From Dehalococcoidia bacterium (lineage in GTDB: Bacteria > Chloroflexota > Dehalococcoidia > UBA2979), in contig OZ219871.1 in NCBI GenBank assembly GCA_964291495.2, forward strand, positions 544,001 to 608,000: DNA of 64,000 nt. Direction: 5' to 3'. The notes beneath the pieces are model-generated. The model ran no database searches. It was not told the DNA's origin and saw only the letters and a program-made list of their open reading frames with translations. Below are positions 3,484 through 64,000 of this stretch, piece by piece. Position 1 is the first letter of the stretch, and the number at the start of each line of letters is the position of its first letter. A program made the position numbers and the translations under genes.

Positions 3484-4293
3484 ATGGACGATCTACGCGG
3501 GAAGGTCGCCGTCGTCACGGGCGGCGGGAGCGGCATCGGGCGCGGTATCGCGGAGGCGCTCGCCGAGGCCGGCGCACGCCTCGTCATCGCGGACATCGAG
3601 GGGTTGGCGGCGGAGGCAGTCGCGGCGCTGATCAGGGACGGGGGCCACCCGGCGATCGCGCGGCGCACCGACGTGACCGACGCCCACGACCTCGAGAGCC
3701 TCGCCGAGACCACCATCGAGACGTTCGGCTCCATCCACGTGCTGGTCAACAACGCCGGCGTGATGACGATGGGGCCGCTGGCGGAGGCGACCGAGGCCGA
3801 CTGGGACTGGCTGTTCGACGTCAACGTGCGCGGCATGGTGCGCGGCGTGCGCGCCTTTCTCCCCCACCTGCGTGCGAACGCGCCCGCGCACATCGTGAAC
3901 ACGATCTCGATGGCCCCCGTCGCGCCGCGGCTCGACGGCGAGATGGGCATCTACACCGCCTCGAAGGGGGCGGCGCTCGGGTTCACGGAGGTGCTGCGCG
4001 CGGAGCTGGCGGACGAGGGGATCGGCGTCACGGCGGTCTGCCCGGGCCCGGTGGATACGCGCCTCTACGAGGCCGAGCGCAACCGTCACGAGCGCTTCGG
4101 CGAAGGCAGGGCGATGGACACGCCCTCGTGGGCCCACCGCCAGCAACCGGACGAGGTTGGCGCGATGGTCGTCGACGCGATCCTGCGGAACGCCGGCTAC
4201 CTGTTCACGGATCTCGACTCGCGCGGCCGCATCGAGGCGCGCGAAGCGCGGATCCGCGAGGGGCTAAACCACCTCGAGCAGAGCAGCGCGTAG
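3484..4293 (+). CDS. short-chain dehydrogenase/reductase
   Basis: TGGGSGIG, NNAG, YTASK. Confidence 0.92.
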   Translation: MDDLRGKVAVVTGGGSGIGRGIAEALAEAGARLVIADIEGLAAEAVAALIRDGGHPAIARRTDVTDAHDLESLAETTIETFGSIHVLVNNAGVMTMGPLAEATEADWDWLFDVNVRGMVRGVRAFLPHLRANAPAHIVNTISMAPVAPRLDGEMGIYTASKGAALGFTEVLRAELADEGIGVTAVCPGPVDTRLYEAERNRHERFGEGRAMDTPSWAHRQQPDEVGAMVVDAILRNAGYLFTDLDSRGRIEAREARIREGLNHLEQSSA

Positions 4294-54097: not shown

Positions 54098-54232
54098 CGG
54101 ACGAGGCGGCGCGAGGAGACTCCGGCAGGCAAATGCCCTGCGCCCTCGCACGTCAGCGATGACGCCAGCCTGTGCAGCGCTCGATCTCGGTCGGAGCGTG
54201 GGCCAGAATCAGGTCCGCGGAAGGGGTTCACC

Positions 54233-55090
54233 ATGCAGCAACTCGAGCTCGTCCCATACCTCCTCTACGAGAAGGAGGACAACGGGATCCTCTGGATCAA
54301 GTTCAATCGCCCGGAGATGCTCAACGCCGCCGTTGGCGGCGCCGAGCGGACCGGCACGCTGGCCAAGGTCGGCGAGTACATGCGCGCCGGCGACGACGAC
54401 CCGCACGTCAAGGTGATCGTGCTCACCGGCGTGGGCCGCGGCTTCTGCGCGGGCGTGAACGTCCGAGGCACGGACCTCGGCGACTTCGAGCCGGGCGACA
54501 ACTTCCTCGGCAACGCACCGTACGAGGCGGGCGGGCTGGACGCGACGCGACAGCGCTTCTACTACGGCATCACCAAGCTGATGAAGGACATCTCGTTCAT
54601 CCGCAAGCCGACGATCGCGATGGTCAACGGCGTGGCCGCCGGATTCGGGATGGACATGGCGCTGCAGTGCGACATCCGCTACGGCAGCGAGCACACGCGC
54701 TTCATCTCCTACCACCAGGTCGGCCAGATCATCGAGAACGGCGGCGCCTACTACCTGACGAGGCTCGCCGGGCTCGGTCGCGCGCTCGAGTTCTCCTTCA
54801 CCGGCAACCTCGACGGCGAGACGGCCGCGGAGTGGGGCGTCCTCAACAGGCTCGTCCCCTCCGAGGATCTCGAGGCCGAGGTGCGAGCGCTGTGCGACCG
54901 CATCATGCGCAACCCGCCGCTGGTCTCCTGGATCAACAAGCGGGTGATCCGCGCCGCCATGGACACCACGCTGGAACACACGGCCGTGCTGACCTCGAAC
55001 GCCTCGCCCATTCCCGGTACGTCGGAGGACGCCGCCGAGGCGCGTTCGGCCCTCGGCGAGCGCCGCGAGCCCGTGTTCAAGGGTCGCTGA
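54233..55090 (+). CDS. enoyl-CoA hydratase/isomerase, copy 1
   Basis: FNRPEMLNA, GRGFCAG, KPTIAMVNGVAAG, PVFKGR. Confidence 0.9.
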   Translation: MQQLELVPYLLYEKEDNGILWIKFNRPEMLNAAVGGAERTGTLAKVGEYMRAGDDDPHVKVIVLTGVGRGFCAGVNVRGTDLGDFEPGDNFLGNAPYEAGGLDATRQRFYYGITKLMKDISFIRKPTIAMVNGVAAGFGMDMALQCDIRYGSEHTRFISYHQVGQIIENGGAYYLTRLAGLGRALEFSFTGNLDGETAAEWGVLNRLVPSEDLEAEVRALCDRIMRNPPLVSWINKRVIRAAMDTTLEHTAVLTSNASPIPGTSEDAAEARSALGERREPVFKGR

Positions 55091-56063: not shown

Positions 56064-57473
56064 CTAGTCGACGACGACCGGCGAGACCGCGCCGAGCAGC
56101 CAGCGCGCGATCGCAGTCATCGCGGCATCCTGGTGCGGCCGGCCGAAGACCTGCACGCCGACGGGCATCCCGCCCACGCTCATCAGCGGCATGCTCACGG
56201 CCGGAGCGAACAGCATCGAGCTCGGGAAGTTGAAGACCGGGTCGCCCGTCGGGCGCGGGGCGAGCGGCTTGCCGGGCTCGTCGCCGAGCCAGACGTGCGC
56301 CGGTCCCGGACAGGAGAGCGTGATGATCGCGTCGCCGGATCCGGCGAGGGCCGCGTGCGCCTCCTGCGCGACCTGGCGGGCGAGCAGCGCCGCCCGATAG
56401 TCGTCGACCGACATCGCCTCGGCCCCGGCCAGCACCGCCTGCGCCCGCTCGCTGACGCCCTCGGGGTGCTCGTCGACGAGGTTGCGCGTCGCCCAGCGGT
56501 TCTCCCAGCCGGTGATCGCGTTGCACACCTCGCGCGCGTCGCCGACCGCGCCCTCCAGCGACTCGACCAGGGGGTCGTCGCCCCGCCGCAGGAGCTGTAC
56601 GCCGAGCTCGCGCAACTGGCCGAGGACCGCGGCGAAGCCCTCCTTGCTCCCGTCGTCCAGCTCCTCCCATCCCTGGGTCTCGAGGACGATCAGCCGCTCG
56701 GGCCTGCGGGGCTCGGGGGTGGTCGCTGGCCCGTCCAGGCCGGGCCAGCCGCGATCGCCCCCGGCGCGCCGCGCGATCTCGATGGCGACCTGCCACATGT
56801 CCTCGATGCAGTTGGCGTGGACGCCGTGCGTGCTCATGCTCGTCGCCTGCCGCTCGCCGCGATTGATGCCGCCCTGCGTCGGCTTGAGGGCGACGTTCCC
56901 GCAGTAGCCGGCGGGTCTGATGATCGAGCCGCCGACCTGCGAGCCGATCGCGGCCGGGAGCATCCGCGCCGCGACCGCGGCGGCCGAGCCCGACGAGGAG
57001 CCGCCGGGCGAGCGCCGCTCGTCGAACGGGTTGGTCGTCGGCCCGGGGTGGGAGCCGCCGAGCTCGGCCGTGACGGTCTTGCCGAGGATCACCGCGCCCG
57101 CCTGCCGCAGCGCCCAGACGGCCGCGTTGTCCCGCTTCGGGAAGTTCCCGCGGAACGCCTCGCAGCCGTACTCGGTGGGCATGTCCCTCGTCTCGAGCAG
57201 GTCCTTGATGCCCACGGGCATGCCGTCGATGGCGGAGCGCGGCTCGCCCGCGGCCCAGCGCTCCGTGCTCGCGTCCGCGGCGGCGCGGGCAAGGTCCGCA
57301 CGGAGGTGCGCGAAGGCCTGGACCAGCGGCTCGCGCTCCTCGATCGTCGCCAGGCAGCGCTCGAGGTAGTCGCGGGGCGTGTCGTCGCCAGACCGGAACC
57401 GGCGGGCGGCGTCGTGGAACGTCAGGGGCTCATAGGTCTGCGGGTCGTAGCCGGTCGCGGTAGCCTGCGCCAT
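56064..57473 (-). CDS. amidase signature family enzyme
   Basis: GIKD, GKT, PGGSSSGSAAAVA, IGSQVGGSIIRPA. Confidence 0.92.
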   Translation of the reverse strand: MAQATATGYDPQTYEPLTFHDAARRFRSGDDTPRDYLERCLATIEEREPLVQAFAHLRADLARAAADASTERWAAGEPRSAIDGMPVGIKDLLETRDMPTEYGCEAFRGNFPKRDNAAVWALRQAGAVILGKTVTAELGGSHPGPTTNPFDERRSPGGSSSGSAAAVAARMLPAAIGSQVGGSIIRPAGYCGNVALKPTQGGINRGERQATSMSTHGVHANCIEDMWQVAIEIARRAGGDRGWPGLDGPATTPEPRRPERLIVLETQGWEELDDGSKEGFAAVLGQLRELGVQLLRRGDDPLVESLEGAVGDAREVCNAITGWENRWATRNLVDEHPEGVSERAQAVLAGAEAMSVDDYRAALLARQVAQEAHAALAGSGDAIITLSCPGPAHVWLGDEPGKPLAPRPTGDPVFNFPSSMLFAPAVSMPLMSVGGMPVGVQVFGRPHQDAAMTAIARWLLGAVSPVVVD

Positions 57474-57486
57474 CACTCAGCCTCGC

Positions 57487-58344
57487 TCAGCGGCCCTTGA
57501 AGACCGGGGTGCGGCGCTCGCCGAGAGCCGCACGAGCCTCGGCGGCGTCCTCCGAGGCCTCGGGAATGGGCGAGGCGTTCGAGGCCAGCACCGCCGTGTG
57601 TTCCAGCGTCGTGTCGACGGCCGCCCGGATCACCCGCTTGTTGATCCAGGAGACCAGCGGCGGGTTGCGCATGATGCGGTCGCACAGCGCTCGCACCTCC
57701 TCCTCGAGGTCCTCGGAGGGGACGAGCCTGTTGAGGACGCCCCACTCGGCGGCGGTCTGGCCGTCGAGGTCGCCGGTGAACGAGAACTCGAGCGCGCGGC
57801 CAAGGCCGGCAAGCCTCGTGAGGTAATAGGCGCCGCCGTTCTCGATGATCTGGCCGACCTGGTGGTAGGAGAGGAAGCGCGTGTGCTCGCTGCCGTAGCG
57901 GATGTCGCACTGCAGCGCCATGTCCATCCCGAACCCGGCCGCCACGCCGTTGACCATCGCCACCGTCGGCTTGCGGATGAACGAGATGTCCTTCATCAGC
58001 TTGGTGATGCCGTAGTAGAGGTGCTGCCGCGTCGCGTCCAGCCCGCCCGCCTCGTACGGTGCGTTGCCGAGGAAGTTGTCGCCCGGCTCGAAGTCGCCGA
58101 GGTCCGTGCCCCTGACGTTCAAGCCGGCGCAGAAGCCGCGGCCCACGCCGGTCAGCACGATCACCTTGACGTCCGGGTCGTCGTCGCCGGCGCGCATGTA
58201 CTCGCCGACCTTCGCCAGCGTGCCGGTCCGCTCGGCGCCGCCAACGGCGGCGTTGAGCATCTCGGGGCGATTGAACTTGATCCAGAGGATCCCGTTGTCC
58301 TCCTTCTCGTAGAGGAGGTACGGGACGAGCTCGAGTTGCTGCAT
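57487..58344 (-). CDS. enoyl-CoA hydratase/isomerase, copy 2 (inverted duplicate)
   Basis: Same 858-bp length as copy 1, with 15 amino-acid differences by my count. Confidence 0.9.
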   Translation of the reverse strand: MQQLELVPYLLYEKEDNGILWIKFNRPEMLNAAVGGAERTGTLAKVGEYMRAGDDDPDVKVIVLTGVGRGFCAGLNVRGTDLGDFEPGDNFLGNAPYEAGGLDATRQHLYYGITKLMKDISFIRKPTVAMVNGVAAGFGMDMALQCDIRYGSEHTRFLSYHQVGQIIENGGAYYLTRLAGLGRALEFSFTGDLDGQTAAEWGVLNRLVPSEDLEEEVRALCDRIMRNPPLVSWINKRVIRAAVDTTLEHTAVLASNASPIPEASEDAAEARAALGERRTPVFKGR

Positions 58345-58453
58345 GGTGAACCCCTTCGGACGTCTCGGACGCTCGGACGCGCCAGAGTGTAGCGCCTCCG
58401 TCGAGCGAGAGGACGCTCGCCACATCGAGCACTGACGAGTGCCGATCCGGGAA

Positions 58454-58660
58454 TCAGGCCTCGGCCTGGTCGTCCTCGATGGAGATCGCGCCGGTGGGGC
58501 AGCCCTCGACGGCGGCCTCGGCCTCCTCACGCAGATCCTCGGGGAGCGGATCGACGAGGACCTCGGGGGAGCCGTCTCCGCTGTCCCTGAAGATCCGGCG
58601 ATGGAAGGTCAAGCAGTTGCCGACGCGGCTGCACTGGTAAAGGTCGATCTTGACGCGCAT
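58454..58660 (-). CDS. small ferredoxin, probably [3Fe-4S]
   Basis: MRVKIDLYQ-CSRVGNC-...-CPTGAI; the second Cys position is Val. Confidence 0.8.
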   Translation of the reverse strand: MRVKIDLYQCSRVGNCLTFHRRIFRDSGDGSPEVLVDPLPEDLREEAEAAVEGCPTGAISIEDDQAEA

Positions 58661-58758
58661 GACTTCCCTCGCACAGCCACAGGTGCCCGGGCAGCGAGGT
58701 TGATAGCCTCCGTTGCGCGGGATCGACATGATAGTCGGCGTGGGACCGGGAGGTTGCG

Positions 58759-59967
58759 ATGGCGGGACCGCTGAGCGGGATTAAGGTGCTCGACTTCACC
58801 TGGGCGATGGCGGGGCCCTACGGGGTGATGATTCTCTCGGACCTCGGGGCGGAGGTGTGGAAGATCGAGACGCCCTTCCAGACGGAGCGGCGGCGCGGGA
58901 ACGGGCCGTACGTGCACGGGGTCAGCACGTACTTCTTCTCGATCAACCGGGGCAAGAAGAGCATCATGCTCGACCTCAAGGCGCCCGAGGCGACGGAAAT
59001 CGTCCATCGGCTCGTGCCGCGGGCGGACGTGGTCACCGAGAACTTCTCGCCGGGGACGATGGAACGCCTCGGCTTCGGGTATGAGGCGCTGTCGAAGCTG
59101 AATCCGGCGCTGGTCTACGCCTCGACGTCCGGGTTCGGGCAAACGGGGCCGTACCGCGAGCGGGGGGCCGTCGACATCATCGCCCAGGCGATGGGTGGGA
59201 TCATGAGCACGACCGGGCACGAGAGCGATCCGCAGCCTTCGCGCGCGGGCTATTCGATCGGCGACATGGCCGGCGGCATCTTCACCGCGATCGGGGTGCT
59301 GTCGGCGCTGGTCGAGCGCAGCTCGAGCGGCCTCGGGCAGCACGTCGACGTCGCGATGGTCGACAGCCAGGTGGCGCTGATGGAGAACGCGATAGTGCGC
59401 CACTTCGCGACCGGCGAGGTGCAACCGCGGGCGGGGCTGCGGCACCCGCTCAGCACGCCGCACCAGGCGTTCCCGGCGAGCGACGGCTGGTTCGTCGTCT
59501 CGGGGGTACGGGACCACGGCTGGCAGCTCTTCTGCGGGATGATCGAAGCGGACGAGCTCGCCGTGGATCCGCGCTTCTCGGAGAACGCGCTGCGCACCCG
59601 GAACTACGAGGAGTTGGAGCCGTTGATGTTCGCGGCGACGCGGCGGAAGCCGCGGGAGCACTGGCTGGAGACGCTGAAGGACCACTTCCTGGTGGCGCCG
59701 CTGAACAACGTCGCGGACGTCGCCCGGGACCCGCATCTCCAGGCGCGCGACATGTTCCGGGAGCTGCCGACGTGGACCGGCGGCACGCTGACCGTGTCGA
59801 ACACGCCGGTGAAGCACTCGCGGACGCCCGGCGGCGCGGAGCGCGGCGCGTCGAAGCCGGGCGAGCACACCCGCGAGGCGCTGGAGAGCGTCGGGTTCCT
59901 CGAGGCGGAGATCGACGACCTCGTGGCGCGCGGAGTGATCGCCGAGGAGCCGGCGGAGGACGAGTAG
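58759..59967 (+). CDS. CaiB/BaiF family III CoA-transferase
   Basis: PLSGIKVLDFT, NRGKKS, ENFSPG, SGFGQTGP, IGDMAGG. Confidence 0.93.
   Translation: MAGPLSGIKVLDFTWAMAGPYGVMILSDLGAEVWKIETPFQTERRRGNGPYVHGVSTYFFSINRGKKSIMLDLKAPEATEIVHRLVPRADVVTENFSPGTMERLGFGYEALSKLNPALVYASTSGFGQTGPYRERGAVDIIAQAMGGIMSTTGHESDPQPSRAGYSIGDMAGGIFTAIGVLSALVERSSSGLGQHVDVAMVDSQVALMENAIVRHFATGEVQPRAGLRHPLSTPHQAFPASDGWFVVSGVRDHGWQLFCGMIEADELAVDPRFSENALRTRNYEELEPLMFAATRRKPREHWLETLKDHFLVAPLNNVADVARDPHLQARDMFRELPTWTGGTLTVSNTPVKHSRTPGGAERGASKPGEHTREALESVGFLEAEIDDLVARGVIAEEPAEDE
59919..59967 (+). repeat. 49-bp direct repeat, copy 1 (CoA-transferase 3' end)
   Basis: CCTCGTGGCGCGCGGAGTGATCGCCGAGGAGCCGGCGGAGGACGAGTAG. Confidence 0.85.
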
Positions 59968-60041
59968 CGGCCTCGGGCAGATCGCGAGGGCGCCGCGATT
60001 CCGGAACCGATCCGTGCGTGACGTGCCTGTGGCCCGCGGCG

Positions 60042-61256
60042 CTACGCCCGTGGCAGCCCCAGGCCGCGCGTCGCGATGATGTTGCGCTGCACCTCGGACG
60101 TGCCGGCCGCGATCGTGCGCGGCACGTCGAGGACGTAGCGCTGGGTGAAGAGCGCAAACAGGGGCGCGCGCTCGTCGTGCTCGTCCCAGAGGTTGGCGTA
60201 GAGGCCGAAGAGGCGGGTGCCCGTGCGTGTTGCTGCCTGCGTGATCTCGGAGATGAACATCTTGGACATCGAGGCCTCGTAGTTCGGGATCAGTCCGCGG
60301 TTCTGCATCGAGATGATGCGGAACGAGAAGTTCTGGCCGACCTCGGTCTCCACGTAGCGATCGGCGAGTTCGGCGCGGAGGGTGGGCGAGAGCCGCGCCC
60401 GCTGCCGGCCCCCCTCGGTTCCGAGGTACTCGCGAAGGAGGTCAAGCCGCCGACGCACGCCAATCGCGCCGGAGATGTTCGAGCGCTCGTAGTCGAGCAG
60501 CGTCATCCCCACGTACCAGCCGCGGTCGACCTCGCCGACCACGTTATCGGCGCGGGTGCGGACGTCCTCGAAGAAGGTCTCGTTGAATCCGTGCTCCCAG
60601 CCCATGTTGATCAGCGGGCGCACGGAGAGACCGGGCGTCTCGATCTCGGGCAGGAGCATGAAGGAGATGCCGCGATGCTTGGGAGCGTTGGGATCGGTGC
60701 GGACGAGGACGAAGAGGGCGTCTGCGTGATGGGCGTTGGAGGTCCAGATCTTCTGCCCGTTGATCACCCACTCGTCGCCGTCGCGGACGGCGCGCGTCTG
60801 CAGCGAGGCGAGGTCCGAGCCGGCGCCCGGCTCGGAGTAGCCCTGGGCCCACATGATCTCGCCCGAGAGAATGCCCGGGAGGACGCGCGACTTCTGCTCG
60901 TCGGTGCCGTGCACAATCAGCGTCGGTCCGAGCATCGCAAGCCCGTTGCCGCCGACCTGCGGCGCTCCGGCCGCCGTCCGCTCGTACGCGAGGATGAACT
61001 GCTCCATCGGGGTCATGCCGGCGCCGCCGTACTCCTGCGGCCATTGAGGAGCGAACCAGCCGCGCTCCGACAGTGCGTCGCCCCAGGCGATCGCGGCTTC
61101 GCGGCGCTCGTCGTCGTCTGACTTGCGGTCCGCACTCCAGTCGTTGTCGAGGCCCCGAGCCTGGCGCGCGCGGTAGTACTCCGGCGTGTGCTCCTCGAGC
61201 ATCGCCCGGACCTCGCTCCGGAACGCCGCCTGCTGCTCGTCGTCAGTCCAGTCCAT
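60042..61256 (-). CDS. acyl-CoA dehydrogenase (FadE-type)
   Basis: WPQEYGG, WAQGYSEPGAGSDLASL, NGQKIWTS, LDYER, AGTSEVQRNIIA. Confidence 0.93.
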   Translation of the reverse strand: MDWTDDEQQAAFRSEVRAMLEEHTPEYYRARQARGLDNDWSADRKSDDDERREAAIAWGDALSERGWFAPQWPQEYGGAGMTPMEQFILAYERTAAGAPQVGGNGLAMLGPTLIVHGTDEQKSRVLPGILSGEIMWAQGYSEPGAGSDLASLQTRAVRDGDEWVINGQKIWTSNAHHADALFVLVRTDPNAPKHRGISFMLLPEIETPGLSVRPLINMGWEHGFNETFFEDVRTRADNVVGEVDRGWYVGMTLLDYERSNISGAIGVRRRLDLLREYLGTEGGRQRARLSPTLRAELADRYVETEVGQNFSFRIISMQNRGLIPNYEASMSKMFISEITQAATRTGTRLFGLYANLWDEHDERAPLFALFTQRYVLDVPRTIAAGTSEVQRNIIATRGLGLPRA

Positions 61257-61312
61257 GGTCGTCCCCTTGTCCCGCGGAGACTGCGTGCGCCGATGCTAGC
61301 AGCACGAAACGG

Positions 61313-61361
61313 CCTCGTGGCGCGCGGGGTGATCGCCGAGGAACCCGCGGAGGACGAGTAG
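61313..61361 (+). repeat. 49-bp direct repeat, copy 2 (orphan CoA-transferase 3'-end remnant)
   Basis: CCTCGTGGCGCGCGGGGTGATCGCCGAGGAACCCGCGGAGGACGAGTAG; 3 mismatches to copy 1. Confidence 0.85.
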
Positions 61362-61509
61362 TATCGTCGAGGGTATGCGTTGAGGTGCGGCGCGGACTGC
61401 CTCCCAAGTCGGTCGCGGCGCTGTCGCGCGCCGGGGCCGACGGCTGCTATCGATCACGCCGCTGCCGGTCTCACTCCCGGCGAGTCCAACATGAGGAGAT
61501 ACGAGCGTA

Positions 61510-63024
61510 ATGACCGTCTCCTCGCTTCGCGTCCACTGGCTCGCAGTCCTGGCAGTTCTGGCCGTCGGCACCATCCTGACCGCCTGTATCGGCAGTCCCG
61601 CGCCCGCGCCGGAACCAAACGCTAGTCCGATCGCCACCCCGGAGCCAGACACGGCCGAGGAAGGCGGAAGTGTGGCGTCGGACCGGGCAGCGCTGGTCGC
61701 CCTCTACAACGCCACGGGCGGCGCAAGCTGGCGTTTCAGCACGAACTGGCTGAGTGACAGGCCCCTCGGTGCGTGGCACGGCGTCACCACGAACAGTGTC
61801 GGCCGTGTCATTGTGGTGCGGCTGTCGGACAGCAGGTTGTCGGGGCCGAGCCCAGCCGAGCAATTGACGGGGCCGATCCCGCCCGAGCTGGGCGACCTCA
61901 CCCATCTGCGAACGCTGCGCCTCGCCCACAACCGGTTGACAGGACCGATCCCGGCCGAGCTGGGCCACCTCAACAACCTGGAAACGCTGGACCTCGGGCA
62001 CAACGGCTTGTCGGGGCCGATCCCGCCCGAGCTGGGCGACCTCACCAACCTGCGAACGCTGGACCTCGGATACAACCTGTTGGCGGGGCTGATCCCGGCG
62101 GAGCTGGGTGACCTCACCAACCTGCAAACCCTGAACCTCGGGTACAACAGCTTGTCGGGGCCGATCCCGGCCGAACTGGGCCACCTCACCAACCTGCGAA
62201 CACTGGTAATCGGGCTCACCAAACTGACGGGACCGATCCCGGCCGAGTTGGGCGGCCTCACTAACCTGCAAACGCTGGACCTCGGAGACAACCAGTTGGC
62301 GGGGCCGATCCCGGCCGAGTTGGGCGGCCTTACCAACCTGCAAGTGCTGTACCTTGGCGGCAACGACTTGCGCGGGCCGATCCCGGAGGCACTGGGCGAC
62401 CTCACCAACCTGGCATCGCTGGGGCTCTCGGACAACCAGCTGTCGGGGCCGATCCCGCCCGAGCTGGGCGACCTCACCAACCTGCTGTGGCTGGGGCTCT
62501 CGGACAACCAGCTGACGGGGCCGATCCCGGCCGAGCTGGGCGACCTCACCAACCTGGAGGCGTTGGCGCTCTCGGAGAACCAGTTGACGGCGCCGATCCC
62601 GGCCTGGCTGGGCGACCTCACCAACCTGGAGCGGCTGGACCTCTCGGACAACCAGTTGACAGGGCCGATCCCGGCCGAGTTGGGCTACCTCACCAACCTG
62701 CGAACGCTGAACCTCTCGGACAACCGGTTGTGGGGGCCGATCCCGGCGGAGGTGGGCGACCTCATCAACCTGCTATCGCTGGGGCTCTCGGACAACCAGC
62801 TGACGGGGGCCATCCCGGCTGAGCTCGGCAACCTCACCGGCCTGGGATGGCTGAACCTCGCGGGCAACCAGTTGACAGGGCCCATCCCAGCCTGGCTGGA
62901 CGACTTCACCAACCTGATAGAGCTGTCCCTCTCTGACAACCCGTTGACGGGGTGCGTGCCCGGCGGCTTGCGCGATGTAGCGCTGAATGATCTTCGGCAA
63001 CTCGACCTGCCCGACTGCGGCTAG
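61510..63024 (+). CDS. leucine-rich-repeat lipoprotein with plant-type LRRs
   Basis: ILTAC lipobox; N-cap DRAALVALYNATGG..W...W..WHGV; 15 repeats of 24 aa, consensus LTGPIPAELGxLTNLxxLxLxxNx. Confidence 0.92.
   Translation: MTVSSLRVHWLAVLAVLAVGTILTACIGSPAPAPEPNASPIATPEPDTAEEGGSVASDRAALVALYNATGGASWRFSTNWLSDRPLGAWHGVTTNSVGRVIVVRLSDSRLSGPSPAEQLTGPIPPELGDLTHLRTLRLAHNRLTGPIPAELGHLNNLETLDLGHNGLSGPIPPELGDLTNLRTLDLGYNLLAGLIPAELGDLTNLQTLNLGYNSLSGPIPAELGHLTNLRTLVIGLTKLTGPIPAELGGLTNLQTLDLGDNQLAGPIPAELGGLTNLQVLYLGGNDLRGPIPEALGDLTNLASLGLSDNQLSGPIPPELGDLTNLLWLGLSDNQLTGPIPAELGDLTNLEALALSENQLTAPIPAWLGDLTNLERLDLSDNQLTGPIPAELGYLTNLRTLNLSDNRLWGPIPAEVGDLINLLSLGLSDNQLTGAIPAELGNLTGLGWLNLAGNQLTGPIPAWLDDFTNLIELSLSDNPLTGCVPGGLRDVALNDLRQLDLPDCG
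61864..62943 (+). repeat. 15 x 72-bp coding tandem repeat (LRR units)
   Basis: Recurring gggccgatcccggccgagctgggcgacctcaccaacctg at a 72-bp period. Confidence 0.9.
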
Positions 63025-63126
63025 ACCGTCTGAGCCTGCCCCAGGAGGCGAGCGGGCAGTGCCCGTGAAGAAGCTGCCCAGCTGATCGGAGAGACTGAGG
63101 GCAGGCGGAACGCTGATGGCCGCCGG

Positions 63127-64000
63127 CTACGGCAGCGTCGTCGGCAGCACCCACATCGGGGTCTCGCCGAGGTCGTAGGTCTCGAGCGGCGTGAGCGTCC
63201 CGCTCTCGCCGTCGACCCGGTACGAGGTGAGGCGGCCGGACTCAAGTCCGCTGGCGAACACGAAGCTCCCGCTCGGATCGAGGCCGAACGCGCGCGGGAC
63301 GGGCTCGGCCGCGACGCGCCCCGTGGGGGTCAGCAGCCCCGTCGCCTCATCGAGGGCGAAGCTTGCGACGCTGTTGTGCCCCCGGTTCGGTGCGTAAAGG
63401 AACCGCCCCGACGGCGAGATCTGGATCTGCGAGCACGAGTTGCGACCGTCGAAGTCCTCGGGGAGCGTCGAAACGGTCTGCACGGGGGTGAGCGTTCCGC
63501 TGTCCCGGTCGAACGCCCAGGCGGTCACGCTGCAGCCCTGCTCGTTCGAGGTGTAGACGAGGTCCTTGTCCGGATGGAAGCAGAGGTGACGCGGCCCGTC
63601 CGCGCCCTCGGGCTTCGCGGCGGGCGGGTCGTTCGGCGTCAACTCGCCGCTGCGCTCGTCGAACCTGAACTGGAAGATCGCGTTGGGCCCCCGGTTCTCA
63701 ATGTGCGGAACGAAGACGAACCGGTTCGAGGCGTCGGCCTGGATCGAGTGCGCCCCGGTCGCTGTGTCGAGCCAGTGCACGGCCGGCCCGCCGAGGGCGC
63801 CGCTCGCGTCCAGCGGGTGCACCGCCACCTTGCCGATGAAGTAGTAGGACGAGAACAGGAAGTTCCCGCTGCGGTCCGTGGCGACGAAGTTCGGCTCGCC
63901 CTCGAGGGGCACCGTGCCCGTCATCGAGAGATCGCCCGTGTCCCGGTCGACGTCGAAGCTCGACATCAGGCGATCGCCGCGGCGCCCGACGTACATGCGC
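63127..64000 (-). CDS. lactonase family beta-propeller (6-phosphogluconolactonase-like), 5' end outside the window
   Basis: AHSI, GPRHLCFHP, SNE, QTVSTLP, YAPNRGHNS, PRAF. Confidence 0.88.
   Translation of the reverse strand, partial: RMYVGRRGDRLMSSFDVDRDTGDLSMTGTVPLEGEPNFVATDRSGNFLFSSYYFIGKVAVHPLDASGALGGPAVHWLDTATGAHSIQADASNRFVFVPHIENRGPNAIFQFRFDERSGELTPNDPPAAKPEGADGPRHLCFHPDKDLVYTSNEQGCSVTAWAFDRDSGTLTPVQTVSTLPEDFDGRNSCSQIQISPSGRFLYAPNRGHNSVASFALDEATGLLTPTGRVAAEPVPRAFGLDPSGSFVFASGLESGRLTSYRVDGESGTLTPLETYDLGETPMWVLPTTLP

What the first reader, a model, noticed from the sequence alone, without database searches (positions are those of the whole stretch)
59919..61361. Insertion scar: acyl-CoA dehydrogenase cassette bracketed by two synonymous versions of a CoA-transferase 3' end
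Seen: the last 49 bp of the CoA-transferase gene (LVARGVIAEEPAEDE*) recur 1394 bp downstream as an orphan ending exactly at the TAG. All three mismatches are synonymous third positions (GGA/GGG, GAG/GAA, CCG/CCC), so both copies evolved as coding sequence. Knowledge: integrative elements that target a gene carry a replacement 3' end and displace the original as a direct repeat. Inference: a 1.4-kb single-gene metabolic cassette with no integrase entered by recombination into the gene end from a related allele. This would be a gene-preserving route for adding catabolic paralogues, and the cassette could excise as a circle.
Basis: partly seen in the sequence, partly recalled or inferred. Interest (0 to 1): 0.7.

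Follow-up and report, generated by a model that had tools for sequence, protein, structure and literature searches.

The report
Gene-end repeat marks integrase-free cassette
In this uncultivated Dehalococcoidia bacterium one dehydrogenase gene lies between two copies of the last 50 bases of its neighbour gene, and sister species show it is a small inserted cassette that has passed between species although it carries no mobility gene.

Summary
The last 49 bp (53 bp with one more mismatch) of the family-III CoA-transferase gene recur 1394 bp downstream, and an acyl-CoA dehydrogenase (ACAD) gene on the minus strand lies between the copies.

It is an insertion scar. Ten of 18 congeners hold the CoA-transferase orthologue. 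Three carry the same cassette with the identical inner junction. Five show a clean empty site. No congener has a full second CoA-transferase at the orphan.

The cassette interior is far less diverged than its flanks (8 of 1352 against 55 of 1248 differences between G014 and G011). The low-divergence block ends at the repeats, so the cassette moved between species on its own. It holds one gene, no recombinase and no terminal inverted repeats.

The orphan is not under coding constraint: G001's copy has lost its stop codon.

The same architecture recurs at nine other loci of this genome, with unrelated repeats and cargo. This argues against a site-specific enzyme.

Best reading: one illegitimate insertion, then spread by homologous recombination that uses the duplicated gene end as a pairing arm. 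Circular excision is untested. I rate it a new variant of a known kind, of moderate interest.

The parts
58454..58660 (-). Small ferredoxin gene (68 aa), divergent from the CoA-transferase. This is left-hand context. Its first 73 bp lie directly after the ACAD stop in G002.
   Evidence: Fer4_15, E 1.3e-9. Match of window 58601-58673 to L013 1412-1484.
58759..59967 (+). Family-III CoA-transferase gene (402 aa), intact. Its last 49-53 bp are repeat copy 1.
   Evidence: PF02515, E 2e-117. NCBIfam hits are all below the curated cut-offs.
59915..59967 (+). Direct-repeat copy 1: the gene's own 3' end, ending at TAG.
59968..60041 (.). Cassette left spacer 't' (74 bp) between the two convergent stop codons. 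It travels with the ACAD gene.
   Evidence: Conserved with the cassette in G001/G011/G014: 0 of 80 differences between G014 and G011.
60042..61256 (-). Acyl-CoA dehydrogenase gene (404 aa), the only cargo.
   Evidence: Acyl-CoA_dh_N, _M and _1 domains. 95-97% aa identity in G001, G014, G011 and G002. Best NCBIfam hit is the PimC-like large subunit at 230 bits against a cut-off of 624, so it is not a member.
61257..61308 (.). Cassette right spacer 'u', the ACAD upstream region. It ends in the junction ...GCAGCACGAAACG|RCCTCGTGG that all four carriers share.
61309..61361 (+). Direct-repeat copy 2: orphan CoA-transferase 3' end, not part of an ORF of 60 aa or more.
61362..61509 (.). Sequence after the orphan. 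It is collinear with the sequence that follows the intact CoA-transferase stop in G004, G017 and G012 (the empty-site flank).
   Evidence: Window 61309-61420 matches L019 1553-1445 across the G004 gene end. Sequences shown.
61510..63024 (+). Leucine-rich-repeat protein gene with 14 tandem 72-bp units. It is a second variable gene of the same site and has no flanking repeat of its own.
63127..64000 (-). Lactonase-family gene, running on to about 64407 beyond the window. It is the conserved right flank and first gene of a conserved minus-strand gene row.
   Evidence: PF10282. Synteny in 8 congeners.

Best explanation
The repeat is the scar of an integrase-free insertion of a single-gene cassette. 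The cassette consists of spacer t, the ACAD gene and spacer u, about 1.34 kb in all. It went in at the 3' end of the CoA-transferase gene. One event duplicated the last ~50 bp of the gene (plus up to 20 bp behind the stop), which kept the gene intact and left an orphan copy. That event happened once, because all carriers share the junction ...CACGAAACG|RCCTCGTGG.

Afterwards the cassette passed between species of the genus by ordinary RecA-type homologous recombination. The duplicated gene end served as one pairing arm. This could be a single crossover of a circular copy (Campbell type) or a double crossover of a linear fragment in either of the two pairing registers that the repeat offers. 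Recombination between the two copies would delete the cassette precisely and restore the empty site.

Shown: insertion versus empty sites, a single shared junction, a separate history of the cassette bounded by the repeats, no mobility gene, and recurrence of the architecture elsewhere in the genome.

Inferred: the recombination pathway, the nature of the first event, and loss through the repeats.
For: (1) Site states. Ten of 18 congeners hold the CoA-transferase orthologue at 90% DNA identity or more. G001, G014 and G011 carry ACAD plus orphan. G005 and G010 have the transferase directly convergent on the lactonase gene. G004, G017 and G012 have the transferase followed by the LRR-type sequence that follows the orphan in the window. 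G009 has the gene relocated. G002 is fragmented.

(2) The inner junction is identical in 4 of 4 carriers. The outer end of the repeat varies with the recipient context: it stops at TAG in the window and runs 9-20 bp further in G001, G011 and G014.

(3) Differences in the cassette interior against the flanks (last 250 bp of the transferase plus the first 1000 bp of the lactonase gene). G014/G011: 8 of 1352 against 55 of 1248, Fisher p 8e-11. G001/G014: 42 of 1351 against 124 of 1250. G000/G014: 60 of 1345 against 133 of 1250. G000/G001: 65 of 1345 against 102 of 1250.

(4) Four-fold degenerate sites, transferase / ACAD / lactonase. G001/G014: 27.8 / 8.3 / 21.2%. G014/G011: 12.2 / 0.9 / 10.4%. 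Mismatch histograms place the block edges at the repeats.

(5) The ACAD similarities cut across the two clades defined by the flanking genes.

(6) Allelic pattern. The G011/G014 orphans are identical to each other and of the clade-A type (IAEEPAE.E), while their gene copies are clade-B type (IAVEPAE.E). G001's orphan keeps GAC as in sister G010, while its gene copy has GAG as in the G011/G014 orphans.

(7) No family match other than ACAD lies inside the cassette. No inverted-repeat pair among the 25 longest listed has arms at the cassette ends. The nearest of the genome's 3 tyrosine-recombinase matches is about 238 kb away. RecA and ComEC are present.

(8) Recurrence. Of 16 two-copy local direct repeats in the genome, 10 have one copy across a gene's stop codon, against 5.8% per random interval (P about 1e-6). 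Three were checked in congeners and show clean empty sites.

(9) Laboratory precedent. In E. coli, 56 of 60 clones sought as illegitimate recombinants were single crossovers of a circular molecule that duplicated 109-950 bp of the lacZ end (PMC3240628, passages read).
Against: No circular or excised form was seen, and only contigs could be laid.

For the window's own genome the separate history is weaker. Spacers t and u differ from the other carriers by 3.5-8.8%, close to the flanks, and only the coding part is clearly less diverged.

ACAD might simply evolve more slowly than its neighbours, although four-fold sites and non-coding spacers argue against this for G001, G011 and G014.

For the crossovers, the model needs exchange points within about 50 bp of the cassette ends in at least two transfers.

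At a second locus (case D) both repeat mismatches are singletons and the cargo is foreign-looking (61% G+C). This fits a target duplication made on the spot better than a homology-bearing donor.

G002 has ACAD next to the lactonase gene without a recognisable orphan, so ACAD-lactonase adjacency could be older than the repeat.

The polarity of gain versus loss was not rooted with an outgroup.
Confidence: 0.6

Rival explanations
1. On-the-spot target duplication. A staggered double-strand break, or a replication template switch, at the convergent gene ends was filled in and a foreign fragment was ligated in (for example by Ku/LigD end joining). This made a 40-175 bp target-site duplication. Later spread was by ordinary recombination in the flanking genes. 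It differs from the best explanation only in the first event and in giving the repeat no role in later transfer.
For: A Ku gene is present. Repeat lengths at the 10 loci are variable and mostly short, 36-175 bp. At case D both mismatches between the copies are singletons, one per copy. Its cargo has 61% G+C and no relative in the 18 congeners. The empty site is found in 10 of 10 congeners that hold both flanks. Selection alone could explain why surviving repeats span gene 3' ends.
Against: In G014 the two copies differ at 6 of 49 positions, including an amino-acid difference, and the orphan is of the other clade's type. G011 and G012 hold 299-bp and 483-bp partial copies, 4-6% diverged from the full copies; these are allelic, not drifted duplicates. 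The low-divergence block ends at the repeats rather than at arbitrary points in the flanks.
Confidence: 0.2
2. Homology-facilitated illegitimate recombination. A linear fragment from a relative (CoA-transferase followed by ACAD) was anchored by homology in the transferase gene. Its far end joined illegitimately inside the recipient's gene end, displacing the recipient's last 50 bp as the orphan. This is the logic proposed for orphan modules of Rhs and T6SS loci.
For: G001's orphan keeps its lineage's codon while the gene copy carries the cassette-type codon. Nested longer orphans occur in G011 (299 bp, behind 15.6 kb of metabolic genes without an integrase) and G012 (483 bp). The mechanism is proposed for orphan arrays in PMC5361080 (passages read).
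Against: In G011/G014 the orphan is the foreign allele and the gene copy is the resident one, the opposite of what this model predicts. In the one experiment read, such events were far rarer than single crossovers: at most 4 of 60 clones, since 56 of 60 were duplications. A donor arrangement 'transferase followed by ACAD without an orphan' was not found in 18 congeners.
Confidence: 0.1
3. Decayed tandem paralogue: a second full CoA-transferase once stood upstream of the lactonase gene and was deleted down to its last 50 bp.
For: Partial copies of 299 bp (G011) and 483 bp (G012) exist. The genome is rich in CoA-transferase and ACAD paralogues.
Against: None of the 10 congeners with the orthologue has a full second copy at the orphan position. 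All 4 carriers share one junction. Clean empty sites exist. The partial copies have different junctions and contexts. This model does not explain why the cassette's history differs from its flanks.
Confidence: 0.04
4. Cis-mobilisable element moved in trans by a site-specific recombinase, with the repeats acting as att sites.
For: Integrating islands that carry a replacement gene 3' end are well known (recalled, not checked here). Three tyrosine-recombinase matches exist in the genome.
Against: The repeats at the 10 loci share no sequence and range from 36 to 175 bp. No recombinase gene lies in or beside any of the six inserts scanned. The outer repeat boundary changes with the recipient context.
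Confidence: 0.03
5. Assembly chimera of two strains.
For: The genome is a metagenome-assembled one (8 contigs, 3.68% contamination).
Against: The same junctions occur in three other species-level genomes. Contigs of run X19 bridge both junctions without a difference: a 1760-nt record over 58700-60087 and an 805-nt record over 61093-61790. X19 may be the source sample, so that part is not independent support.
Confidence: 0.01

Closest known systems
Campbell-type single-crossover 'insertion-duplication' (seen naturally arising in E. coli conjugation; PMC3240628, passages read)
   Same: The insert is flanked by a direct duplication of a gene-end segment. The target gene stays intact. No dedicated recombinase is involved. 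The event is reversible by recombination between the copies.
   Different: Here the duplicated segment is only 49-70 bp (109-950 bp in the experiment). The insert is a chromosomal single-gene cassette shared by four species. A circular intermediate has not been seen.
Minimal mobile elements of Neisseria (definition read in PMC3787668; the original papers by Saunders and Snyder were seen only in its reference list)
   Same: The site between conserved flanking genes holds different whole-gene contents in close relatives. Here there are four states: nothing, ACAD, LRR, and ACAD plus LRR. No mobility genes are present, and exchange by homologous recombination is inferred.
   Different: As I understand the definition, those elements carry no flanking direct repeat. 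Here a copy of the flank's last 50 bp travels with the cassette and marks its edge.
C-terminal displacement and orphan modules of Rhs, CDI and T6SS effector-immunity loci (PMC5361080, passages read)
   Same: Incoming DNA supplies the working 3' end, and the older end is pushed downstream as an orphan. Nested orphans accumulate (G011 has three copies of the transferase end).
   Different: There the new end encodes a different toxin domain, and diversification is the point. Here the two ends encode the same peptide and the cargo is a separate metabolic gene.
Integrase-borne islands that bring a replacement 3' end of a protein or tmRNA gene (e14 in icd of E. coli; ssrA islands of Dehalococcoides).
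   Same: A direct repeat made of a gene's 3' end brackets the insert, and the gene is preserved.
   Different: Those elements encode the recombinase and use one fixed att core. Here there is no recombinase and the repeats at different loci are unrelated.
Transformation-driven merodiploidy by alternative pairing of a repeat (S. pneumoniae; PMC3784515, passages read)
   Same: A repeated segment lets donor DNA pair in two registers, so homologous recombination can create or move duplications.
   Different: That work describes 100-900 kb tandem duplications between IS copies, not kb-scale cassettes at gene ends.

Membership tests
Site-specific integrative element (island, IME or CIME with att repeats) | Recombinase gene in the element, or one shared att core used at several sites | tested here: not met
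   ACAD is the only family match in the cassette. The repeats of the 10 loci are unrelated in sequence and range from 36 to 175 bp. The nearest tyrosine-recombinase match is about 238 kb away.
Transposon or insertion sequence | Transposase, terminal inverted repeats, and a short target duplication of fixed length | tested here: not met
   No transposase family was found. None of the 25 longest listed inverted-repeat pairs (of 69 found) has arms at 59968-60041 and 61257-61312. Duplication length is variable, 36-175 bp.
Integron gene cassette | attC recombination site behind the ORF, arrays of cassettes, integron integrase | not tested
   No attC model was available. The repeat is the coding end of a working gene. 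There is only one cassette per site, and the cargo is antisense to the neighbouring gene. I judge membership unlikely, without a formal test.
Minimal mobile element | Different gene content between the same conserved flanking genes in close relatives, without mobility genes | tested here: met
   Four states occur between the CoA-transferase and the lactonase gene among the genomes compared. No mobility gene is present.
Minimal mobile element | Exchange by homologous recombination in the flanks | tested here: inconclusive
   The cassette has a younger common ancestry than its flanks. However, the exchange points sit at the repeats, not at varied points inside the flanking genes.
Campbell-type insertion-duplication | Insert bracketed by a direct duplication of the homology segment | tested here: met
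Campbell-type insertion-duplication | The two copies are reciprocal donor/recipient chimeras | tested here: inconclusive
   G011/G014 have a foreign-type orphan and a resident-type gene copy. G001 has an own-type orphan and a gene copy with a cassette-type codon. These patterns are compatible, but the donors are unknown and informative sites are few.
Campbell-type insertion-duplication | Circular intermediate or reversible excision | not testable with these tools
   Only assembled contigs of 4 runs could be laid, and no such joint was among those listed.
Tandem paralogue remnant | Relatives with a full second gene copy at the orphan position | tested here: not met
   None of the 10 congeners with the orthologue has one.

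The most novel reading that the evidence does not exclude
In this Dehalococcoidia genus, short copies (about 40-175 bp) of the 3' ends of conserved genes act as portable 'address tags'. They let promoter-poor one- or two-gene cassettes (ACAD, a HigB/HTH pair, an RCC1-repeat protein, secreted proteins) enter, leave and re-enter the same gene end in different species using only the host's homologous recombination. This would be a recombinase-free, gene-preserving counterpart of integron or island cassettes. The cargo sits antisense to the tagged gene in 4 of 4 scorable cases, which hints at a directional step that no current model explains.
Probability: 0.3. Interest if true: 0.75.

Novelty: new variant of a known kind. 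Interest (0 to 1): 0.45.

Why it matters
Gene gain in bacteria is usually credited to elements that carry their own recombinase, or to recombination in long conserved flanks. Here a 1.3-kb metabolic gene moved between species with nothing but a 50-bp copy of its neighbour's end. The same scar occurs at about ten places in one 3-Mb genome, around toxin-antitoxin, repeat-protein and secreted-protein genes. If general, this is a cheap route for expanding paralogue-rich catabolic repertoires in uncultivated lineages without breaking the target gene. It also gives annotators a simple signature for such events in metagenome-assembled genomes: an orphan duplicate of a gene's last 40-175 bp a few hundred to a few thousand bases downstream. 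Finally, it warns that short orphan 'pseudogene' ends need not be decayed paralogues.

Tried and rejected
1. Search for excised, circular or empty-site forms in public runs. 24 runs were listed, all kept as contigs. Four (X19, X20, X21, X1) were laid on 58700-61790 at 90% likeness. No joint at the repeats was among the 15 listed, and 37 more were not shown. Contigs drop rare forms, so this says nothing either way. Habitat labels of runs with small shares were not used.

2. Two exact-pattern scans of metagenome contigs, one for the inner junction and one for the ACAD upstream spacer, both gave 0 hits.

3. Rfam on six repeat-bounded loci gave 0 matches at gathering score.

4. The promoter and terminator consensus scan of 59850-61600 gave 0 sites. 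This is uninformative for this phylum.

5. A flanking repeat for the neighbouring LRR gene was sought by local alignment in G000, G004 and G017. Nothing exceeded shuffled controls.

6. The 40 bp between ACAD and the lactonase gene in G002 were compared with the orphan. About 19 of 40 aligned positions match by my own count on the alignment. This is too weak to call a decayed orphan.

7. The native context of the ACAD gene was examined. Distant congeners hold a 72-76% aa homologue behind phosphoribosyltransferase and Pyr_redox_2 genes. G000 lacks those two genes at E below 1e-20. No donor locus was identified.

8. Integrase in the 15.6-kb G011 insert: none among the 18 ORFs scanned.

10. In one search the frame chosen for gene g64175 was evidently wrong, so that row was ignored.
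Full report
OBSERVATION. The last 49 bp of the ORF at 58759-59967 (+) recur at 61313-61361 with 3 mismatches. None of 100 dinucleotide-preserving shuffles of the window gave two matches. Ungapped extension gives 53 nt at 92% identity, spaced 1394 bp. Both copies translate to LVARGVIAEEPAEDE*. The ORF is a family-III CoA-transferase (PF02515, E 2e-117). The only gene between the copies is an acyl-CoA dehydrogenase (ACAD) with all three ACAD domains, on the minus strand at 60042-61256 and convergent with the transferase. Four further ORFs in or over the interval have no Pfam match.

SURROUNDINGS. The gene order in the window is:
- amidase, 56064-57476 (-)
- enoyl-CoA hydratase, 57487-58530 (-)
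- a 68-aa ferredoxin, 58454-58660 (-)
- CoA-transferase (+)
- ACAD (-)
- the orphan
- an LRR protein with 14 tandem 72-bp units, 61510-63024 (+)
- a lactonase-family gene, from 63127 (-), which heads a conserved minus-strand gene row

These assignments rest. NCBIfam places the transferase and the ACAD only at family level, since all hits fall below the curated cut-offs. The record titles of congeners read 'MAG: Dehalococcoidia bacterium'.

RELATIVES. A DNA search of 18 congeners found the transferase orthologue (90-94% identity) in 10. Mapping with blastn and tblastn gave these states:
- G001 and G014: transferase, ACAD, orphan, lactonase.
- G011: a full transferase, then 15.6 kb, then a 299-bp partial transferase end, ACAD, orphan, lactonase.
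- G005 and G010: transferase directly convergent on the lactonase gene.
- G004, G017 and G012: transferase followed by the LRR gene.
- G009: transferase relocated between two other conserved genes.
- G002 (300 contigs, 6% contamination): ACAD beside the lactonase gene on a 6.3-kb contig, with the transferase on another contig.

The window's orphan plus its downstream sequence (61309-61420) aligns across the intact gene end of G004 (sequences). No genome has a full second transferase at the orphan position.

JUNCTIONS. All four carriers share the inner junction ...GCAGCACGAAACG|(G/A)CCTCGTGG, so the cassette arose once. The other end of the repeat depends on the context. In the window it stops at TAG, because the following sequence is of the LRR type. 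In G001, G011 and G014 both copies continue for 9-20 bp (CGCGGCCTC..., and in G001 up to ...CCGGCCACAT), ending a few bases before the lactonase stop. G001's orphan has decayed: TAG has become CAG and ATCGCC has become ACGGCG. In the window, GGA is found only in the gene copy and CCC only in the orphan among all copies compared. Two of the three mismatches are therefore private changes, one per copy. The 'synonymous' pattern is thus not evidence that both copies were once coding.

SEPARATE HISTORY OF THE CASSETTE. The flanking genes split the genomes into clade A (G000, G005, G009, G001, G010) and clade B (G011, G014, G004, G017, G012). Carriers occur in both clades.

Differences in the cassette interior (t, ACAD, u) against the flanks (last 250 bp of the transferase plus 1000 bp of the lactonase gene):
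- G014/G011: 8 of 1352 against 55 of 1248
- G001/G014: 42 of 1351 against 124 of 1250
- G001/G011: 44 of 1350 against 124 of 1248
- G000/G014: 60 of 1345 against 133 of 1250
- G000/G001: 65 of 1345 against 102 of 1250

At four-fold degenerate sites the values for transferase, ACAD and lactonase are 27.8, 8.3 and 21.2% for G001/G014, and 12.2, 0.9 and 10.4% for G014/G011. In that call the row for gene g64175 was dropped because its frame was wrong. Histograms of mismatches per 50 nt place the edges of the low-divergence block at the two repeat copies.

The signal is strong among G001, G011 and G014. It is weaker for the window's own genome, where the non-coding spacers are about as diverged as the flanks.

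The repeat copies fit exchange at the gene end. The orphans of G011 and G014 are identical and of the clade-A type, while their gene copies are clade-B type and differ from each other at 5 of 49 positions. G001's orphan keeps codon GAC as in its sister G010, while its gene copy has GAG as in the G011/G014 orphans.

RIVALS.
- A decayed tandem paralogue is not supported. None of the 10 genomes has a second full copy at the orphan, there is one shared junction, and clean empty sites exist.
- The 299-bp copy of G011 is a clade-B allele, 95.7% identical to G011's own full copy. It lies behind 15.6 kb of metabolic genes and gene fragments without an integrase. G012 holds a 483-bp orphan followed by the first ~35 bp of spacer t but no ACAD. 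These look like further, larger events at the same gene end.
- A chimeric assembly is excluded by the three other genomes. In addition, contigs of run X19 bridge both junctions without a difference, although X19 may be the source sample.
- A site-specific element is unlikely, as the next two sections show.

RECURRENCE IN THE GENOME. Self-comparison of the laid genome in 12-kb windows gave 103 local direct-repeat pairs. Sixteen of these have only two copies genome-wide. In 10 of the 16, one copy spans a gene's stop codon while the other is an orphan 0.6-9 kb downstream. A random interval of the same lengths spans a called 3' end 5.8% of the time (P about 1e-6).

The repeats are unrelated in sequence and 36-175 bp long. 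Inserts scanned with Pfam hold a HigB-like/HTH pair, an RCC1-repeat protein, a 392-aa ORF with a signal-peptide-like start (as judged by eye) and other small ORFs. None holds a recombinase. Rfam found nothing.

Three of these loci were checked in congeners:
- Case D: the insert is absent from 10 of 10 congeners holding both flanks, and the repeat unit is present once.
- Case B (toxin-antitoxin pair between an M50 peptidase gene and ispG): present in 5 congeners, clean empty site in 5, and 8 not analysed.
- Case C (RCC1): clean empty site in G009, and a homologue of the insert at about 80% identity in G017, G004 and G012.

In the 4 cases with a scorable cargo, the cargo lies antisense to the gene whose end is duplicated. 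The sample is too small for a firm claim.

MECHANISM. Unrelated, variable-length, target-derived repeats exclude one site-specific enzyme and a classical transposase. Two steps must be kept apart.

The first step is the event that made the repeat. It cannot be reconstructed. Candidates are integration of a circular fragment that carried the gene end, one-sided homology with an illegitimate join, or a filled-in staggered break. Ku, RecA and ComEC are all encoded.

The second step is the later spread. It is best explained by homologous recombination in which the repeat offers two pairing registers. This could be a single crossover of a circle or a double crossover of a linear fragment. Either gives the observed resident-type copy on one side and foreign-type copy on the other, and block edges at the repeats.

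There is a direct laboratory precedent. In an E. coli conjugation screen, 56 of 60 clones carried a 109-950 bp duplication of the lacZ end, made by a single crossover of a circular molecule (PMC3240628, passages read). Alternative pairing of repeats during transformation is documented in S. pneumoniae (PMC3784515, passages read). Displacement of older gene ends as orphans is proposed for T6SS and Rhs loci (PMC5361080, passages read). The site as a whole fits the definition of a minimal mobile element as quoted in PMC3787668 (passage read). Searches for 'long target site duplication' with 'bacteria' and for Campbell-like integration of accessory genes without integrase listed nothing that matches. 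That covers only the held open-access library.

FUNCTION. The cassette adds an ACAD to a cluster that already encodes a CoA-transferase, enoyl-CoA hydratases, a ferredoxin and a lactonase. These are the parts of a carboxylate activation and oxidation route. The gene is under purifying selection, with 2.2-3.5% amino-acid differences against 8-15% at four-fold sites. In G001, G011 and G014 it sits co-directionally behind the lactonase gene row, so read-through transcription is likely (inference). In the window the LRR gene separates them.

LIMITS. Gain versus loss is not rooted. G002 (ACAD next to the lactonase gene, no clear orphan, and a 73-bp ferredoxin-gene start behind the ACAD stop) hints that the history is more tangled. 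No reads were available to test excision. Supplementary files of the cited papers were not consulted.

VERDICT. This is an integrase-free, gene-preserving cassette insertion that has been exchanged between species. It is one of about ten such scars in this genome. I class it as a new variant of known recombination-driven gene exchange, of moderate interest.

Noticed in passing
L043:2150-2200 and L043:2869-2919 (G000:C5:363650-363700 / 364369-364419): A 51-bp direct repeat of the 3' end of an M50 (RseP-like) peptidase gene brackets a 668-bp insert with a HigB-like toxin and an HTH antitoxin on the opposite strand, just upstream of ispG. The insert is present in 5 congeners. A clean empty site is found in 5 (G005, G002, G004, G012, G011).
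   Followed up: partly
L041:2181-2243 and L041:3644-3706 (G000:C6:780680-780742 / 782143-782205): A 63-bp repeat of a thiolase-like gene's end brackets 1.4 kb of 61% G+C DNA. The insert holds one 392-aa ORF with a signal-peptide-like start (as judged by eye) on the opposite strand. It is absent from all 10 congeners that hold both flanks. Each of the two repeat mismatches is private to one copy.
   Followed up: partly
L040:2441-2480 and L040:4425-4464 (G000:C5:243940-243979 / 245924-245963): A 40-bp repeat spanning the stop of a nitronate-monooxygenase-like gene brackets a 638-aa RCC1-repeat protein gene on the opposite strand. G009 has a clean empty site. Homologues of the insert at about 80% identity occur in G017, G004 and G012.
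   Followed up: partly
G000 contigs C1:76248/77165, C5:879783/880440, C6:331197/340151, C6:519644/521746, C6:802120/803730, C8:61094/62195 (start positions of the repeat copies): Six more two-copy local direct repeats (36-175 bp) in which one copy spans a gene's stop codon. At C6:519644 the repeat covers the overlapping ends of two convergent genes (one is amtB), so both genes stay intact.
   Followed up: no
window 54220-55090 (+) and 57487-58357 (-): An 871-bp inverted duplication (94% identity) of an enoyl-CoA hydratase gene flanks an alpha/beta-hydrolase gene and an amidase gene. In G001 the two hydratase copies lie in direct orientation, so this segment has probably inverted.
   Followed up: no
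L023:5604-6842, L024:2481-2777 and L024 about 4126-4178 (G011): G011 holds three copies of the CoA-transferase end in a row: a full gene with LRR-type downstream sequence, a 299-bp partial copy 15.6 kb further on before ACAD, and the 53-bp orphan. The 15.6 kb hold urease gamma and beta genes, only the N-terminal piece of urease alpha, arginase, ABC-transporter genes and other gene fragments, but no integrase.
   Followed up: partly
L030:8674-9111 (G012): A 483-bp orphan of the CoA-transferase 3' end, 39 kb from the full gene. It has a 3-bp deletion and is followed by the first ~35 bp of the cassette's spacer t, but there is no ACAD. This looks like the remnant of a lost cassette at another place.
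   Followed up: no
L027:9016-10221 (G009): The CoA-transferase orthologue (95.5% aa) sits between the homologues of two genes that lie 10-15 kb away from it in the window genome. In all genomes its DNA homology starts sharply at window 58734-58736. The transferase gene may itself behave as a movable module.
   Followed up: no
L013:1412-1484 (G002 contig C244): The first 73 bp of the ferredoxin gene (window 58601-58673) lie directly behind the ACAD stop and are cut off by an LRR gene. No CoA-transferase lies between them.
   Followed up: no
whole genome G000: A large family of interspersed repeats of about 40-200 bp. There were 10,980 self-hit pairs at word size 16, and 87 of 103 local repeat pairs had more than two copies genome-wide.
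   Followed up: no
window 61793-63028: The LRR gene is built of 14 head-to-tail 72-bp units (64-82% identical over 300-nt frames). Its closest NCBIfam hits are type-III effector LRR families, all far below their cut-offs.
   Followed up: no
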